Shown: positions 10,857 through 20,113, counted from the stretch's first letter. The stretch: 64,000 bases of DNA from Nitrospirota bacterium (GCA_963751455.1 CAVVUN010000001.1:32001-96000); one strand, 5' to 3'. Numbers and translations are program-made. The notes: a model not told the origin generated them from the letters alone.

Positions 10857-11552
10857 TCAGGATCGCATGATCCGGCCGTCTCTCATTTCGAAGACGCGGT
10901 CCGCCGTGCGGGCCAATTCGAGGTTGTGCGTGACCATGATAACGGTCAAAGCGGACTTCCGGGAAAGATCTTTCAAAATCTGAACGATCTCGGTTGACCG
11001 CTTCGTGTCGAGATTTCCCGTAGGTTCGTCAGCCAGAAGTATTTCCGGTGAATTTACCAGCGCTCTCGCTATCGCAACCCTCTGCATCTCGCCGCCGGAG
11101 ATCTGGCCCGGCAGATGGTCCCTGCGGTGGTCGATCCCGAGAAGATCCAGGAGTCCCTGCGCTTTTTCTTTTACTGCCGGCCTGCAATAGAAGGTGAGCG
11201 GCAGCATGATATTCTCGATCACCGTCAGAGTGGGAAGCAGATAAAAATTCTGAAAGATATAGCCGAATATTTCTCTTCTGATTTTGGTCAGTTTGCCTTC
11301 GGTCAGCGCGTGGTTTTCGGCTCCGAAAATCGTCTTTCCGCCCAATACCAGCCCTCCGGATGTCGGGTTATCGAGGCAGCCGAGCAGATTGATTAGAGTG
11401 GTCTTTCCGGAGCCCGAAGGGCCGATAAAGGAAACAAAATCGCCTTTATTGATGCAGAGCGACGCGTCATCGACCGCTCTGATCTCCTCGTTTCCGCGGC
11501 GATAGACTTTGGTCAGGTTTGTTGCTTCGAGGGAAAGGTCGTTCCGGTTCAT
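10857..11552 (-). CDS. ABC ATPase (LolD/MacB type)
   Basis: [30 protein letters not shown] overlap with the permease gives the start at 11552. Confidence 0.92.
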
Positions 11553-12742
11553 CCGTTCACCTCGCTCCGGATCGCCTCGAGCGGTCTGATTCTGCCCGCT
11601 TTCCAGGCCGGATAGAGCCCGCTGAGAAGTCCCGTGCCGATAACGGCAAAGAGAGTAATCAGTACAAGTTTTGCATCGATCACGACAAGGCCGCCCGTGG
11701 GCGAGTACGGCAGGATATTCCGTATCATCAATTCCGTCAGCCCCGACAAAATCATCGCAAGGATTACGCCGAGAATTCCTCCGCTTACGCAGAGAAGCAG
11801 CGTTTCGATCCAAACCAACTGGAAAATATCCCATGGCATGGCGCCGATAGTCTTCAAAATGCCGATTTCCTGAAACCGTTCATGCACGGACATCAGAATG
11901 GTGTTGATCACTCCTACCATGGCAATCAGGATTGCAATGAGCGCGATCGAAAGGACGAGTACTTTCGCAGTGGAAACCAGCGACAGGATCGTCTGTTTTA
12001 CCTGCGCGAGGCTGACCACCTGGATATCGGGGAGTGAGTAGAACTTTTCTTCGATCCGGCCGGCGTCCGCATCCTTTTTAACTTTGACCCCGATCGTCGT
12101 CAGTTGCTCGTTTTTGGAGAACAGGGCCTGCAGGGTCACAAGAGGCACAAAAATTGTTCCGTCGTCCTGGGTGCCTGTTCTGTTCAGGATTCCGACAACC
12201 TTGAATTGCGCGTTTTTTTCGGGAATCAGGATCAGGTCCCCGACCTCCCGCTGTTCAAGCTCCGCAGCCTCGTATCCCATTACGGCCTCGTATGAGTCGG
12301 TTTTCGTGAACCAGCCGCCCTGCCTGAACTTGAAAAAAGTCTTCAGCTCGCTGAAACTTTGCGGTTCTACGCCGAGATAGGCGGCAATGCCTCCGTTTTC
12401 GCCCTTGTTCGGGTCGAACACAGCCTGCATTAGCATCGGGGTTATTTTCTCCACACCCGGTTCTTTCCTGATTGTCGCGCATATCGACTGATTTACGTAT
12501 TTCAGCCCGGTGCCGCCCTTCAGCATCATCGTCGCAGCCTCATACGGACATCCCTTGGCCATCAGCATCATCTGGAAGCCCATGTTGTCGATGTCCTTGT
12601 TCAGAGCGGTTTCAAAGCCGTGACTGAACCCGAGAAGGCTAGCCAATATCCATGCGGAAAGCGCGATGCCGATGAGAGTGAGTACGCTGCGGATTTTTTT
12701 CCGGAGCAGGTTCTTATAGGCGAATTCAAATTTGGTCATCAT
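11549..12742 (-). CDS. ABC permease (MacB/FtsX family)
   Basis: ER..EIGILKTIGA and GLYPAWKA motifs; periplasmic domain with KGCPY. Confidence 0.9.
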   Translation of the reverse strand: MMTKFEFAYKNLLRKKIRSVLTLIGIALSAWILASLLGFSHGFETALNKDIDNMGFQMMLMAKGCPYEAATMMLKGGTGLKYVNQSICATIRKEPGVEKITPMLMQAVFDPNKGENGGIAAYLGVEPQSFSELKTFFKFRQGGWFTKTDSYEAVMGYEAAELEQREVGDLILIPEKNAQFKVVGILNRTGTQDDGTIFVPLVTLQALFSKNEQLTTIGVKVKKDADAGRIEEKFYSLPDIQVVSLAQVKQTILSLVSTAKVLVLSIALIAILIAMVGVINTILMSVHERFQEIGILKTIGAMPWDIFQLVWIETLLLCVSGGILGVILAMILSGLTELMIRNILPYSPTGGLVVIDAKLVLITLFAVIGTGLLSGLYPAWKAGRIRPLEAIRSEVNG

Positions 12743-12794
12743 TGCGGAGAGACCTTGTCCTTAGGCGTTCACCCAAAATGGAAAGAAAATATTT

Positions 12795-12957
12795 GCCACA
12801 GAGAGCACAGAGGACACAAAGGAAAGTCTAAAAAGATTAATAAATTCTGTCACTACTCAGGTCAAAACCTGTTAGCCTCGGCCAAGCTGAGCAGTTACTA
12901 AATTCATCTATTTTTTATTTTTTGTTTCCCTCTGTGTTCTCGGTGTCGTCTGTGGCT
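12795..12957. repeat. GCCACAGA-type palindromic repeat containing a 50-bp GTAAC-family mini-MITE (12849-12898)
   Basis: gccacagagagcacagaggacac ... tctgtgttctcggtgtcgtctgtggc; inner GTCACTACTCAG/CTGAGCAGTTAC flanked by TAAATTCT/TAAATTCA. Confidence 0.6.
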
Positions 12958-13637
12958 ACCAGCTTTTCCGGCTTGACCGGGTTAGGTAATGCGGGAATAT
13001 AGCCGAATGCAGTCATCAAAACCAGGTTCTTCTTGGTTGCCCGCAGGGCAGCCTTGAAGTCGGCCTCTGCTGCAGGCGCCGGATTCGTTATTTCCGCGAC
13101 CTTGCCCGAGGCTTTTCCCGAGGGCACATCATACTGCTCAAAATCGCGCAGGGTAAGGCCGATGAACTGTTTCCCGAATTTCGCGTCGCGTATCTTCCCG
13201 GCATACTGACTCGTCATCTTCTGGACATAGAACGCCGTGATGGTTCCTTCCGGGTCGAGTGCGAGAAAAACCTGAATGCCGCCGAATTGCCCTTTCTGGT
13301 TCACCCCGTGAATGCATCCGACCTTCTTTTTATTCGTGTAAATTTCATAGACCGTATAGGGAATCTCGATCGTTTCATAAAGGCCATGGAACGTGTCCCC
13401 AAGGCCCGCTTCTATTGCTGCAAGAAGTTTCTCGCCCCCCTTCTGCAGGACCGAAACATAGAGCGTCTTGTAGCCGGTTGACCCGGGGAAAAGCCTTGCA
13501 ACATCACGATCAGGGTCGTTCAGGTCGCATCCGACAGCGCCCCATGCCGCCTGACAGCAGACCAGCATTACAATAAGGGCCGTTCCGGCGAAGGCATAAG
13601 AATGAAATCCCGGATAACTTTTTTTGTCGGAAGTCAT
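12915..13637 (-). CDS. Exported protein, FMN-binding-domain-like
   Basis: Signal peptide; GQFGGIQVFLALD...F.KQFIG resembles the FMN_bind/RnfG fold. Confidence 0.55.
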   Translation of the reverse strand: MTSDKKSYPGFHSYAFAGTALIVMLVCCQAAWGAVGCDLNDPDRDVARLFPGSTGYKTLYVSVLQKGGEKLLAAIEAGLGDTFHGLYETIEIPYTVYEIYTNKKKVGCIHGVNQKGQFGGIQVFLALDPEGTITAFYVQKMTSQYAGKIRDAKFGKQFIGLTLRDFEQYDVPSGKASGKVAEITNPAPAAEADFKAALRATKKNLVLMTAFGYIPALPNPVKPEKLVATDDTENTEGNKK

Positions 13638-13664
13638 ATCCCTCTATCGCCCTTTCATGGCTAT

Positions 13665-18353: not shown

Positions 18354-18385
18354 CCTGAAACTGATGGCAATTAAAAATCCAGTTC

Positions 18386-18474
18386 TGTCATTTCGAGCGC
18401 GGCGAGAAATGCACGTTCCAATCGTTAGTTTGAGAAAGATTGAACCACAGATGCTCCGCTCCTTCGGAATGACA
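18386..18474. repeat. TGTCATTTCGAGC-type REP pair (other copies at 21673-21699 and 23817-23966)
   Basis: TGTCATTTCGAGCGCGGCGAGAAAT ... TCGGAATGACA. Confidence 0.65.
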
Positions 18475-18507
18475 AGAGGGATAAATAAATATCAGGAGGC
18501 ATGTATC

Positions 18508-19611
18508 ATGACAAACAAATTAATAGCTTTTTTAATAATCACGTTCATCGGGCTGGCATCAGTCAGCTTTCTCTATGGAGAAGCCGTTACCTACAATCCA
18601 TCGTTTAATGCGGAGGGAATGAAATATCTGGCTGCCCCGACCAGCCATGTCCCTGGCAAGGACAACGGGGCCGGGATAGGTCTGCACAATGCGGGCGAGG
18701 ACTGCGGCATGTGCCATACGCCGAACGGCAAGGCCGGAAATTACGCGTTCACAATCGGCGGCACGATTTACGAGGACCGTGCGGCCAGGAGAACGCTGAA
18801 GGGCGCCGAAGTCATTCTCCAGGATATAAGCGGCAAGGTCATCAGCATGACCACCAACGAAGCGGGTAACTTCTGGACCTATACCCCGATCGCAGGCAAC
18901 CCCTACTCCGTCTCGAGTCACAGCGGTATAACCGACATACTATAACGGTTAATGCAGACGGGTCCGTGACGCCTGCGAACACGACCTTGCCCATGACATG
19001 GGAATACAAGGCCTGGGTAAAAAATCCGGACGGAACAGTTCGCCACATGGTCACGATCGCGCCGATCGGCGGAATGAGCGCTCCAGAATGGGCTGCAACA
19101 TGCACCATTCCGCGTTCGGGACCACCGGAGCGGCGTGGGCTTCGCGAAAGAGTACTTCGCAAGTTATCCTGCATCTGGCTTGAGCTTCCGGAAGCATATT
19201 CTCCCCATATTCAAGACCAAGTGCGCGCCGTGCCATGTCCCCGGCTCTACTACTACTCGACTCGCAACCATAAGCGACGTGCTGACGGCCTCAACGAATA
19301 CCAGCAGTCTCGCGCTTACGAACAGCTCAACAACATCGATCGATTACAGCCAGGGAATGGATTTCCAGTCCTATGACGGTTCGACTGTAGCAGCGCTTGT
19401 AAGCGGGGTCACAACCACGATTACGAAGACAGGGATAAAAGCACTCACCCTCCCTTATCAGTCGAATCCTGATGCCAGTCCGGTCCTTACCAAGGCGTTA
19501 ATACAACCGGCCGGTGTTTGCATACATCCCGGCGGCACCTTCTGGACGGCGGATGATACGGATTACAAGGCCATCCGTGCATGGATATCCGAAGGAGCTC
19601 AGAATAACTGA
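18508..19611 (+). CDS. Exported c-type cytochrome-like protein, frameshifted
   Basis: Signal peptide; CGMCH, CNMHH, CAPCH; C-terminal IRAWISEGAQNN; pieces in three frames. Confidence 0.7.
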
Positions 19612-19663
19612 AGGCCGGCTTTTTCTTCTTGTCGAACGTGAAAATCCGGGATAATATTGCGGA

Positions 19664-20113
19664 ATGAACAACCAGCGGATAAATGTCTCATCAACCATTT
19701 TGCTTCTTTTCTGTCTGCTTATAACACTCGTTTCCTGCTCACGTCAGGCCGTTTACCCGGGGCCTGACGTGAGCGAAACGAATATTGTTATCGATCTTTC
19801 CGTGCTGCAGCCCGAACTTCCGAAGTTCTATACATGCACATTTCAGGGCAAGAAAATCAATTTTTTCACGATTCTTTTGAACAGCAAAGCCGTTTCCTTT
19901 CTCGACGCATGCACGAGCTGCTATCCTCAAAAACGCGGTTATAAATACCAGAACGGCACGGTAGTCTGCAAAGACTGCGACATGACATTTTCCGTTTACA
20001 AACTTGAAAAAGGCCTGGGCGGCTGCTATCCGATCAAGATAGAAGGCAGGACTGATAAAGGAAAGTATTTTATTCCCCTGACCGCACTTCAAAGTGCAGC
20101 ACATCAATTCTGA
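19664..20113 (+). CDS. DUF2318-type Fe-S/metal-binding lipoprotein
   Basis: DACTSC..GY...VCKDC...GGCYP motif. Confidence 0.8.
   Translation: MNNQRINVSSTILLLFCLLITLVSCSRQAVYPGPDVSETNIVIDLSVLQPELPKFYTCTFQGKKINFFTILLNSKAVSFLDACTSCYPQKRGYKYQNGTVVCKDCDMTFSVYKLEKGLGGCYPIKIEGRTDKGKYFIPLTALQSAAHQF

What the first reader, a model, noticed from the sequence alone, without database searches (positions are those of the whole stretch)
10857..20113. Candidate undescribed copper/metal acquisition system: divergent nine-gene envelope locus plus a leader ORF
Left arm: YtkA-like protein (MPSMRGAH), OM barrel, FMN-bind-like protein, MacB-type permease (GCPY) and ATPase. Right arm: xRPP leader ORF, a non-TonB barrel with CC, a Met-rich loop (MDMTSSNGMMLGWTDMTM) and HAHM, an FG-GAP propeller lipoprotein ending in a Gly/Ser tether plus DCH, a c-type cytochrome, and a DUF2318 protein. 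Established: DUF2318 with MacB-like ABC genes occurs in Fet/P19 iron-uptake loci, and Met/Cys/His clusters typify Cu(I) handling. No Ftr1 or P19 gene is visible here. Inference: a redox-coupled Cu (or Fe) uptake or delivery machine that I do not recognise as characterised.
Basis: partly seen in the sequence, partly recalled or inferred. Interest (0 to 1): 0.8.

Follow-up and report, generated by a model that had tools for sequence, protein, structure and literature searches.

The report
Leader-controlled, TonB-free copper import operon
The locus is two separate units rather than one machine: a five-gene ATP-driven envelope cassette has been inserted back-to-back with a conserved operon, in which a small cysteine/proline leader gene likely controls a methionine-rich outer-membrane pore predicted to import copper without the usual TonB energy link.

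Summary
All nine genes and the leader ORF exist, and their Cys/Met/His residues are conserved. The reading as one nine-gene machine is not supported.

The left arm (YtkA-like, barrel, RnfG-like, MacB permease, ATPase) is inserted into a short mobA-leader spacer. None of 13 informative related loci has it, and none of the other family genomes tested carries both arms.

The right arm is a conserved operon:
- a 93-aa LDVCH...ERPP leader with CruR-like spacing;
- a COG4313-fold barrel with eleven invariant Cys/Met/His residues;
- an optional FG-GAP lipoprotein plus cytochrome pair;
- an FtrD-like lipoprotein.

Relatives carry a competing antiterminator/terminator RNA behind the leader; this genome's copy lacks the terminator arm. 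Best reading (0.5): copper-responsive, TonB-independent Cu(I) import and periplasmic hand-over. Rivals are sulfur/thiol-redox control (the same leaders also head MccSep, rhodanese and YeeE genes) and iron.

The frameshifts are absent from a second copy in the assembly. This scan has already reported the leader family (e1-2792963) and the left cassette (e1-2789612) on other DNA. No metal binding or regulation was measured.

The parts
10857..11552 (-). LolD/MacB-type ABC ATPase (left cassette)
   Evidence: PF00005; best NCBIfam TIGR02211, below cut-off; 68-74% identical in left cassettes of G012, G018, G203, G222
11549..12742 (-). MacB/FtsX-type permease with a GCP motif just after TM1; no membrane-fusion or TolC gene in the cassette
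   Evidence: PF12704 and PF02687; G-C-P invariant in 10 of 10 aligned homologues
12915..13637 (-). Secreted RnfG-like protein with an invariant Cys and His; lacks the SGAT flavinylation motif; residues 212-240 run into a repeat element
   Evidence: hhalign to RnfG 74% probability, E 2.8e-5, alignment ends at the SGAT position; C37 and H110 in 120 of 120; 2526 homologues; tail matches six unrelated contigs of one MAG
13665..14798 (-). Left-cassette outer-membrane barrel-like protein; barrel fold inferred, not modelled
   Evidence: 524 homologues; M55, H160, M214, H288 in 119 of 119; no Pfam or PDB sequence match
14800..15259 (-). YtkA/CrdA-like periplasmic protein (MPSM); one extra base near 15152 relative to the C7 copy
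   Evidence: cassette-only profile matches PDB 9ll2 'Copper resistance protein', E 2.6e-5; Atlas YtkA clusters 0.96-0.97; indel
15309..15338 (-). Sigma-70-like promoter candidate of the left cassette
   Evidence: TTGACA-18-AACAAT; consensus match only
15392..15421 (+). Promoter candidate of the leader; the start codon lies about 6 nt after the -10 box, so the mRNA is probably leaderless
   Evidence: TTGACA-18-TATGGT; similar layout in the relatives printed
15428..15709 (+). 93-aa leader ORF: hydrophobic N-terminus, LDVCH, 46 residues, ERPP
   Evidence: L36, D37, C39, P51, E86, P88, P89 invariant in 12 of 12; profile hits 49 of 64 family genomes; Cys-to-xxPP gap 46-48 in 44 of 45 parsed copies
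15710..15907 (+). Intergenic region with a degenerate form of the family's two-state RNA: B segment GCACTTCGG at about 15844-15852 kept, terminator 3' arm missing, palindromic repeat inserted
   Evidence: B pairs with the first 45 nt at P 0.77, 3 of 60 shuffles as high; model R1 has no hit in G000 but hits 20 of 36 family genomes
15908..16945 (+). COG4313/PF13557-fold outer-membrane barrel with N-terminal CC, Met-rich strands and loop, and HxHM
   Evidence: AF2 pLDDT 77; top Foldseek hits FapF 5o67 and Pput2725 4rl8, E about 1e-15; C27, C28, M60, M93, M95, M123, M125, M140, H193, H195, M196 in 119 of 119
16961..18353 (+). FG-GAP propeller lipoprotein with a Gly/Ser tether and C-terminal DCH; several single-base indels here, whole (461 aa) in the C7 copy
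   Evidence: PF01839; DCH in 6 of 7 aligned proteins, DDHQH in the seventh; indels
18508..19611 (+). Two-domain c-type cytochrome: two CxxCH motifs plus a conserved CxMHH; three single-base indels here, whole (367 aa) in the C7 copy
   Evidence: motifs conserved in 5 of 5; AF2 pLDDT 84; N-domain transthyretin-like, C-domain Z 7.8 to FoxE and 5.7 to PccH; 11 of 401 phylum genomes
19664..20113 (+). FtrD-like (DUF2318) lipoprotein with CxxC, CxxC and a fifth Cys
   Evidence: PF10080 59.9 bits, cut-off 26.3; five Cys kept in 9 of 9 checked
20365..21603 (+).
   Evidence: NF040886 341 bits, cut-off 250; two tRNA-SeC genes in the assembly; lies inside or at the head of the leader locus in G006 and G135

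Best explanation
The right arm is a conserved operon whose small exported Cys/Pro leader likely gates transcription in response to copper and whose Met- and Cys-rich 12-stranded barrel is predicted to let Cu(I) diffuse into the periplasm without TonB, while the left arm is an independent, likely copper-handling MacB-type cassette inserted next to it. Shown: the gene content, ligand conservation, barrel fold class, leader spacing, the competing hairpins in relatives, and the independence of the arms. Inferred steps: (1) The ribosome pauses at ERPP while LDVCH, 46 residues upstream, lies just outside the exit tunnel and binds the metal. (2) Ribosome position biases the downstream RNA between an antiterminator and a terminator in relatives; this genome has lost the terminator arm, so control here may be weaker or different. 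(3) By analogy with CruR, the operon is on when copper is scarce. (4) Surface methionines collect Cu(I) and pass it to a site built from the N-terminal CC plug and HxHM, much as in OprC. (5) The flexible DCH tail of the FG-GAP lipoprotein takes the ion, and the cytochrome and the five-Cys FtrD-like lipoprotein (or TlpA in relatives) keep the metal and its thiols in the right redox state for clients such as the genome's heme-copper oxidases. (6) The left cassette would use a CrdA-like Met protein and the GCP permease to move or load copper in the periplasm.
For: Barrel: COG4313 fold, in which the N-terminus plugs the lumen (PMC4493636, passages). Eleven Cys/Met/His residues are invariant in 119 of 119 homologues, enriched over background. 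OprC uses a plug Cys, HxM and a methionine track (PMC8610252, passages). Leader: Cys-to-xxPP gap 46-48 in 44 of 45 parsed copies, against 45 residues between CXXC and RAPP in CruR (PMC9426467, passages). A true DUF2946 gene (32.2 bits, cut-off 23.7), with an HMA gene upstream, heads a 40%-identical barrel in G043. Neighbours of barrel homologues or leader copies include NosL, HMA, HMBD, YtkA, CopD, a SCO-like protein and AhpC/TSA. The genome has a full-length COX1 and further PF00115 members. RNA: 13-bp hairpin before a U-run, 94% paired, 5 pairs with double changes, 0 of 500 shuffles as high; alternative pairing P >= 0.77 in 14 of 16. Independence of the arms. Left cassette: match to PDB 9ll2 copper resistance protein; sits after multicopper oxidase genes in G018 and L055.
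Against: No metal binding, stalling or regulation was measured. The leaders have one invariant Cys, not CXXC, and 0 of 12 match PF11162. ERPP lacks the Arg at the RxPP position, which PMC12992588 (passages) calls irreplaceable. The commonest genes behind the leaders are TlpA-like (18) and split-Soret-like (16) proteins, and some copies head MccSep, rhodaneses, a YeeE transporter or multiheme cytochromes, none of them copper proteins. Blocking 12 nt after the stop codon left the antiterminator at P >= 0.76 in 12 of 16 sequences, and the RNA lies 185 nt from the stop in two genomes, so simple ribosome occlusion is not assured. Six of 22 leader spacers have no B segment. The N-terminal CC segment is unresolved in the model (pLDDT below 50 for residues 11-42). 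Characterised COG4313 channels are linked to hydrophobic substrates. In three genomes (G203, G222, G012) the left cassette follows an ExtI-type porin locus rather than copper genes, and in G255 a rhodanese-like gene.
Confidence: 0.5

Rival explanations
1. Sulfur/thiol-redox operon: the leader Cys senses sulfane sulfur or periplasmic thiol state, and the CC-plugged barrel, DCH tail, FtrD-like protein and TlpA admit or relay polysulfide to MccSep.
For: MccSep is a polysulfide reductase whose outer-membrane entry route is stated to be unknown (PMC13510729, passages). It is adjacent here and in 3 of 21 other barrel loci, and directly behind a leader in G135. Leaders also head rhodaneses and YeeE. 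ExtI porins precede the left cassette in G222 and its relatives.
Against: Seven invariant methionines and HxHM are soft-metal ligands and have no role in known sulfur relays (own knowledge). DUF2946, HMA, NosL, CopD and SCO-like neighbours. MccSep has its own promoter-like sites here and was not seen in 18 of 21 barrel loci, many of them short.
Confidence: 0.2
2. One reading: all nine genes form one redox-coupled uptake machine, with the MacB-type ABC transporter as its inner-membrane part.
For: Divergent layout around one intergenic region; both arms carry Met/Cys/His motifs; both copies in the assembly keep the join.
Against: 0 of 13 informative barrel loci have left-arm genes. 0 of 8 left-cassette loci have right-arm genes. 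0 of 9 family genomes with the barrel orthologue have the RnfG-like gene, and 0 of 7 left-cassette genomes have the barrel orthologue.
Confidence: 0.07
3. Iron (or Ni/Co) uptake of the Fet/Ftr kind, with the cytochrome as a ferrous oxidase and the FtrD-like protein as electron relay.
For: PF10080 domain; cytochrome C-domain best matches the putative iron oxidase FoxE, Z 7.8; one leader heads a TonB receptor with DUF4198; DUF2318 plus ABC genes act in iron uptake in Campylobacter (PMC10783030, passages).
Against: No FTR1 or P19 match in the genome, with controls ringing. Z 7.8 is within the range the tool calls common. The invariant ligands are Met and Cys, not carboxylates.
Confidence: 0.1
4. 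Detoxification rather than import: the leader works like CutF, so copper induces stalling and turns the operon on, and the barrel with its periplasmic partners binds or exports excess Cu/Ag.
For: CutF ends in a proline-rich motif and copper-induced stalling switches cutO on (bioRxiv 2025.02.05.636593, abstract only). CrdA-like protein and multicopper oxidase neighbours of the left cassette. The RNA analysis does not fix the direction of control.
Against: The spacing matches CruR. The payload is led by an outer-membrane channel and chaperone-type genes rather than an oxidase; no multicopper oxidase was found in this genome.
Confidence: 0.13

Closest known systems
CruR-BfrG operon of Bordetella pertussis (DUF2946/PF11162 leader; PMC9426467)
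   Same: Small exported first ORF with a Cys motif a fixed distance (45 vs 46-48 residues) from a C-terminal di-proline motif, a long spacer, then an outer-membrane transporter; AhpC/TSA and copper chaperone genes as companions.
   Different: LDVCH instead of CXXC; ERPP instead of RAPP; no PF11162 match; relatives carry an intrinsic terminator/antiterminator, whereas CruR uses Rho; the transporter is a 12-stranded COG4313 barrel, not TonB-dependent.
OprC/NosA TonB-dependent copper transporters (PMC8610252)
   Same: Plug-region Cys, HxM-type motif and many conserved methionines in an outer-membrane barrel.
   Different: 345 aa COG4313 fold with no TonB plug domain; CC and HxHM instead of CxxxM-HxM; geometry of the site not established.
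COG4313/PF13557 channels (Pput2725 4rl8, FapF 5o67, SphA, TcpY; PMC4493636)
   Same: Fold class (top Foldseek hits); many homologues carry PF13557.
   Different: Known members take up hydrophobic compounds or secrete amyloid; none seen in my searches has metal ligands or a metal role. The window protein itself gives no PF13557 hit.
FetMP-FetABCDEF iron uptake cluster of Campylobacter jejuni (PMC10783030)
   Same: DUF2318 domain with two CXXC motifs and a fifth Cys; ABC permease and ATPase; thioredoxin-like genes in relatives.
   Different: No FetM/Ftr1 or P19; DUF2318 is a stand-alone lipoprotein; it and the GCP permease belong to different, unlinked modules.
YtkA (CtaK) of Bacillus subtilis and CrdA-type copper resistance proteins (PMC9145763; PDB 9ll2)
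   Same: Remote sequence match of the left cassette's first protein, with conserved methionines.
   Different: Below the PF13115 threshold (no hit); encoded with a barrel, an RnfG-like protein and a MacB-type transporter rather than with an oxidase or RND pump.
MccSep/ExtKL of Geobacter sulfurreducens (PMC13510729)
   Same: Window 20365-21603 is above the NF040886 cut-off, with the in-frame TGA.
   Different: Here it lies beside the leader operon, not in an ext cluster.

Membership tests
CruR / DUF2946 leaders | Match to PF11162 | tested here: not met
   0 of 12 aligned leaders at E <= 10
CruR / DUF2946 leaders | CXXC motif | tested here: not met
   One invariant Cys in LDVCH
CruR / DUF2946 leaders | C-terminal RAPP/RxPP | tested here: not met
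   E[RHQ]PP; invariant E and PP
CruR / DUF2946 leaders | About 45 residues between the Cys motif and the proline motif | tested here: met
   46 in the window; 46-48 in 44 of 45 parsed copies, 6 of 51 copies not parsed
CruR / DUF2946 leaders | N-terminal export segment; first gene of an operon with a long spacer | tested here: met
   Hydrophobic N-terminus read from the alignment (no signal-peptide predictor run); 198-bp spacer; first position
CruR / DUF2946 leaders | Copper-dependent stalling and regulation | not testable with these tools
   Needs toeprinting and reporter assays
COG4313 / PF13557 barrels | 12-stranded barrel most like Pput2725/FapF | tested here: met
   Foldseek E about 1e-15, TM 0.56-0.59 by query
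COG4313 / PF13557 barrels | PF13557 match | tested here: inconclusive
   No hit for the window protein; many close homologues carry it
COG4313 / PF13557 barrels | N-terminus folded into the lumen | tested here: inconclusive
   Residues 11-42 have pLDDT below 50
OprC / NosA | 22-stranded TonB-dependent barrel with plug domain (TIGR01778) | tested here: not met
   345 aa COG4313 fold; no NCBIfam hit
OprC / NosA | CxxxM-HxM site and methionine track | tested here: inconclusive
   CC, HxHM and seven invariant Met present; spatial arrangement not measured
Fet/P19 (FetMP-ABCDEF) or FtrABCD iron uptake | Ftr1-type permease | tested here: not met
   PF03239 not found in G000, rings in 4 control genomes
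Fet/P19 (FetMP-ABCDEF) or FtrABCD iron uptake | P19/FetP periplasmic protein | tested here: not met
   PF10634 not found in G000, rings in 1 control genome
Fet/P19 (FetMP-ABCDEF) or FtrABCD iron uptake | DUF2318/FtrD-like domain | tested here: met
   PF10080 59.9 bits
FMN_bind / RnfG flavoproteins | PF04205 match and SGAT flavinylation motif | tested here: not met
   0 of 20 members match; motif replaced by KNPAP
YtkA / CrdA | PF13115 match or homology to a solved CrdA-type protein | tested here: inconclusive
   No Pfam hit; PDB 9ll2 at E 2.6e-5; Atlas YtkA clusters
MccSep / ExtKL | NF040886 above cut-off with in-frame TGA | tested here: met
   341 bits against 250; TGA at 21280-21282; tRNA-SeC present

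The most novel reading that the evidence does not exclude
The CC/Met-rich COG4313 clade is a TonB-independent Cu(I) import channel that converged on OprC's ligand chemistry. It is gated by a non-DUF2946 ERPP stalling leader through an intrinsic terminator switch, and it hands copper to a new tethered metallochaperone (FG-GAP propeller with a DCH tail) paired with a new two-domain cytochrome carrying a CxMHH site.
Probability: 0.3. Interest if true: 0.75.

Novelty: new variant of a known kind. Interest (0 to 1): 0.57.

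Why it matters
How Gram-negative bacteria take up copper is known for only a few transporters, mostly TonB-dependent ones. A small plugged barrel with invariant copper-type ligands, found from this phylum to distant metagenome loci and usually headed by a Cys...Pro-Pro leader, gives a directly testable candidate for a second route. 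It would also give the large COG4313 family a metal substrate. The ERPP leader tests whether stalling peptides outside the RxPP class sense metals, and whether they can work through an intrinsic terminator. If the sulfur rival is right, the barrel is instead a candidate for the unknown polysulfide entry route to MccSep. The score is held down because the nine-gene unity is accidental, nothing was measured, and the scan has already noted the leader family and the left cassette.

Tried and rejected
- **One nine-gene system:** rejected.
- **Flavoprotein reading of 12915-13637:** rejected.
- **Known riboswitch in the spacer:** no Rfam match at gathering score in 7 loci; one chance-level hit in 8 loci at E <= 5.
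- **OprC absence:** TIGR01778 was not found in G000 or in 64 family genomes, but no control genome reached the cut-off, so this is not used as evidence.
- **NosZ search:** rang nowhere, uninformative.
- **COX1 as a co-occurrence test:** useless, since 58 of 61 genomes are above the cut-off.
- **Named-genome scan:** with the RnfG-like protein it gave 1 real locus of 7; the other six matched only a repeat.
- **Cytochrome fold:** no Foldseek hit at E <= 0.001; the best VIA Z of 7.8 is not decisive.
- **Sequencing runs:** none was listed, DNA or RNA, so the frameshifts and expression are unchecked against reads.
- **Complex prediction** for FG-GAP with the cytochrome was not available.
- **Recalled link to Geobacter GSU1338-1341:** could not be tested; the one passage seen calls it a metal efflux pump (PMC3495685).
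- **YcnI-like reading** of a gene upstream of the barrel in 7 metagenome loci: recalled from its AH...HGC motif; it got no Pfam or NCBIfam support.
- **Literature:** searches listed no paper on this barrel clade, leader or cassette. The library is partial, and supplements were not read (notably CruR Table S1, which may list PF13557 neighbours).

Full report
**Setting.** The window is G000:C1:32001-96000 of a 5.7-Mb assembly listed as 100% complete and 5.4% contaminated. The closest named homologues are Nitrospirota, so the phylum is inferred. Contig C7 holds a second copy of the locus. It is identical to the window from 13934 to about 16500 apart from one indel and one mismatch, and about 7-14% divergent beyond.

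The YtkA-like, FG-GAP and cytochrome genes carry single-base indels in the window: one near 15152, seven uncompensated ones between 17172 and 18076, and three at 18945, 19085 and 19157. The C7 copy has whole ORFs of 152, 461 and 367 aa. Sequencing error is the likelier cause, but no runs were listed to check it.

**Two modules, not one.** I screened 21 other loci carrying the barrel at 50% identity or more. None has a left-arm gene. Ten show mobA upstream of the operon with no cassette between, three have over 5 kb of other upstream DNA, and eight are too short to tell. The mobA promoter-like segment and the leader promoter segment, about 150-230 bp apart in relatives, now flank the left cassette. 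Conversely, eight left-cassette loci (G012, G018, G203, G211, G222, G243, G255, L055) hold no right-arm gene. Six of them have the left barrel; G018 and G243 lack it. At genome level, 0 of 9 family genomes with the barrel orthologue have the RnfG-like gene. Likewise, 0 of 7 left-cassette genomes have the barrel orthologue, though four have weak paralogues. These are draft genomes, so this means 'not found in those searched'.

**Right-arm content varies.** Among the 21 loci, the FtrD-like gene was seen in 13, FG-GAP in 11, a split-Soret-like gene in 10, the cytochrome in 9 and MccSep in 3; many loci are truncated. The FG-GAP/cytochrome pair is therefore optional. The cytochrome occurs in 11 of 401 phylum genomes.

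**The barrel.** The AF2 model is a beta-barrel (pLDDT 77) whose best matches are the 12-stranded FapF and the COG4313 channel Pput2725. In Pput2725 the N-terminus plugs the lumen (PMC4493636, passages), which would place the mature N-terminal CC inside; that segment is unresolved in my model. C27, C28, M60, M93, M95, M123, M125, M140, H193, H195 and M196 are invariant in 119 of 119 homologues of 51-73% identity. Seven of 15 Met positions are invariant, against 47 of 322 positions overall. The alternating pairs 93/95 and 123/125 lie on strands and would face one side (inference). OprC binds copper with a plug Cys, HxM and a methionine track (PMC8610252, passages); the likeness is chemical, not one of membership. 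In 80 metagenome loci of the wider clade, a loose Cys...PP pattern lay upstream in about 45 by my hand count, with no control run. A TlpA-like gene lay nearby in 25. In G043 a true DUF2946 gene with an HMA gene upstream heads a 40%-identical barrel.

**The leader.** The conserved ORF is 15428-15709: a hydrophobic N-terminus, LDVCH, 46 residues, ERPP. Its start lies about 6 nt after the -10 box, with a similar layout in relatives. A profile finds it in 49 of 64 family genomes, up to five copies each. The Cys-to-xxPP gap is 46-48 in 44 of 45 parsed copies; 6 of 51 did not parse. CruR has 45 residues between CXXC and RAPP, and the spacing matters for regulation (PMC9426467, passages). Against membership: no PF11162 match in 12 leaders, no CXXC, and Glu where RxPP peptides need Arg (PMC12992588, passages). 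The genes behind the 51 copies cluster as TlpA-like (18), split-Soret-like (16), COG4313 barrels (14 plus 3) and weakly YtkA-like lipoproteins (11). Single cases include NosL, CopD, a SCO-like protein, a TonB receptor, MccSep, rhodaneses, YeeE and multiheme cytochromes. That mix is the main evidence against a pure copper reading.

**The RNA switch.** Sixteen of 22 leader spacers hold a segment B, YTTCGG. Before the downstream arm is made, B pairs with the first 45 nt after the stop at P >= 0.77 in 14 of 16; shuffled means were 0.13-0.45 (for L044 the start was moved 185 nt by hand). In the full RNA, B pairs downstream at P >= 0.82 in 11 of 16. That 13-bp hairpin precedes a U-run and covaries: 94% of cells paired, 5 pairs with double changes, 0 of 500 shuffles as high, though relatedness inflates this control. 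A covariance model hits 20 of 36 family genomes. A leader lies upstream in 24 of the 26 hits I examined, or 15 of 17 outside the training set. It does not hit G000, whose copy lacks the downstream arm and has a palindrome inserted. Blocking 12 nt after the stop leaves the antiterminator intact in 12 of 16, and blocking 25 nt removes it in 12 of 16. In two genomes the RNA is 185 nt from the stop. Coupling to the ribosome, and its direction, are therefore not settled. No Rfam family matches.

**Periplasmic partners.** The FG-GAP lipoprotein ends in a Gly/Ser tether plus DCH in 6 of 7 aligned proteins and DDHQH in the seventh. The cytochrome has two CxxCH motifs and a conserved CxMHH. Its model (pLDDT 84) shows a transthyretin-like domain and a domain with middling likeness to FoxE (Z 7.8) and PccH (Z 5.7). 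The FtrD-like lipoprotein keeps five Cys in 9 of 9 checked. The genome has a full-length COX1 and other PF00115 members, and no FTR1, P19 or multicopper oxidase match.

**Left cassette.** The permease has an invariant GCP. The RnfG-like protein has 2526 homologues, including Geobacteraceae and Deltaproteobacteria, and lacks the flavin motif. The YtkA-like protein matches a solved copper resistance protein; YtkA/CtaK serves CuA assembly in Bacillus (PMC9145763, passages). The cassette follows multicopper oxidase genes in G018 and L055, an ExtI-type porin locus in G222, G203 and G012, and a rhodanese-like gene in G255 (only the G222 porin was scanned). Copper handling is likely but less well supported than for the right arm.

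**Verdict.** The finding is a chance juxtaposition of two real modules. The right arm works most probably like CruR-OprC without being a member of either family. Copper import is put at 0.5, sulfur/thiol redox at 0.2, detoxification at 0.13, iron at 0.1 and a single nine-gene machine at 0.07. Earlier scan notes on the left cassette (seen after my gene-order comparison but before the later ligand checks) and on the leader with attenuator (seen after my own analysis) are unchecked AI notes and are not counted as evidence. New here are the CC/Met barrel clade with its FG-GAP, cytochrome and FtrD-like payload, and the demonstration that the arms are independent. Papers: passages only for PMC9426467, PMC10783030, PMC3495685, PMC13510729, PMC12992588, PMC9145763, PMC4493636 and PMC8610252; abstract and outline only for bioRxiv 2025.02.05.636593; no supplements read.

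Noticed in passing
window 20365-21603 (+): MccSep/ExtKL selenocytochrome with in-frame TGA at 21280 followed by a predicted stem-loop; copies on C7 (92%) and C15 (38%).
   Followed up: partly
G000 contig C7 1-8200 (L031): Second copy of the locus, identical over about 2.6 kb and then about 7-14% divergent; suggests two co-assembled strains or a chimeric join near window 16500.
   Followed up: partly
window 21756-26475 (-): MacB-type efflux set (TolC-like, CoxG-like, membrane-fusion protein, ATPase, permease) that converges on the right arm; a similar set lies there in G006, G031, G029 and G035.
   Followed up: no
window 12915-13000 and 15810-15842: Repeat-like elements: one extends the RnfG-like ORF (matches six contigs of another MAG), one palindrome interrupts the leader spacer.
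   Followed up: partly
L046 (G000:C15:352000-368000): A second FtrD-like gene with its own MacB permease and ATPase, next to YeeE, rhodanese-like, DsrE-like and TusA-like genes.
   Followed up: no
L273 (G135:C52:8000-21500): Two tandem leaders: the first heads MccSep, the second heads split-Soret-like, barrel, FG-GAP, cytochrome and FtrD-like genes.
   Followed up: partly
L084 12129-16299, L049 5468-9421, L085 12055-16138: ExtI-type porin with Ig-like (Big_2) lipoproteins directly upstream of the left cassette, and another Big_2 protein downstream.
   Followed up: partly
L089, L090, L091 (family f9): Reduced left cassette (RnfG-like, permease, ATPase, about 40% identical) behind a porin-like gene and a small Cys-containing ORF; NiCoT and TonB receptor genes upstream in G136.
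   Followed up: no
L126:24-869 and homologues in 7 metagenome loci: Secreted protein starting AH and containing HGCDG, upstream of barrel homologues; resembles YcnI from memory, with no Pfam support.
   Followed up: partly
window 15375-15397 and relatives: Conserved AATTnnAA(C/T)TTTAC element just upstream of the leader's -35 box; an UP element or regulator site.
   Followed up: no
L048 10387-13596 (G018): 1070-aa lipoprotein with collagen-like repeats and multicopper oxidase domains directly upstream of a left cassette that lacks the barrel.
   Followed up: partly
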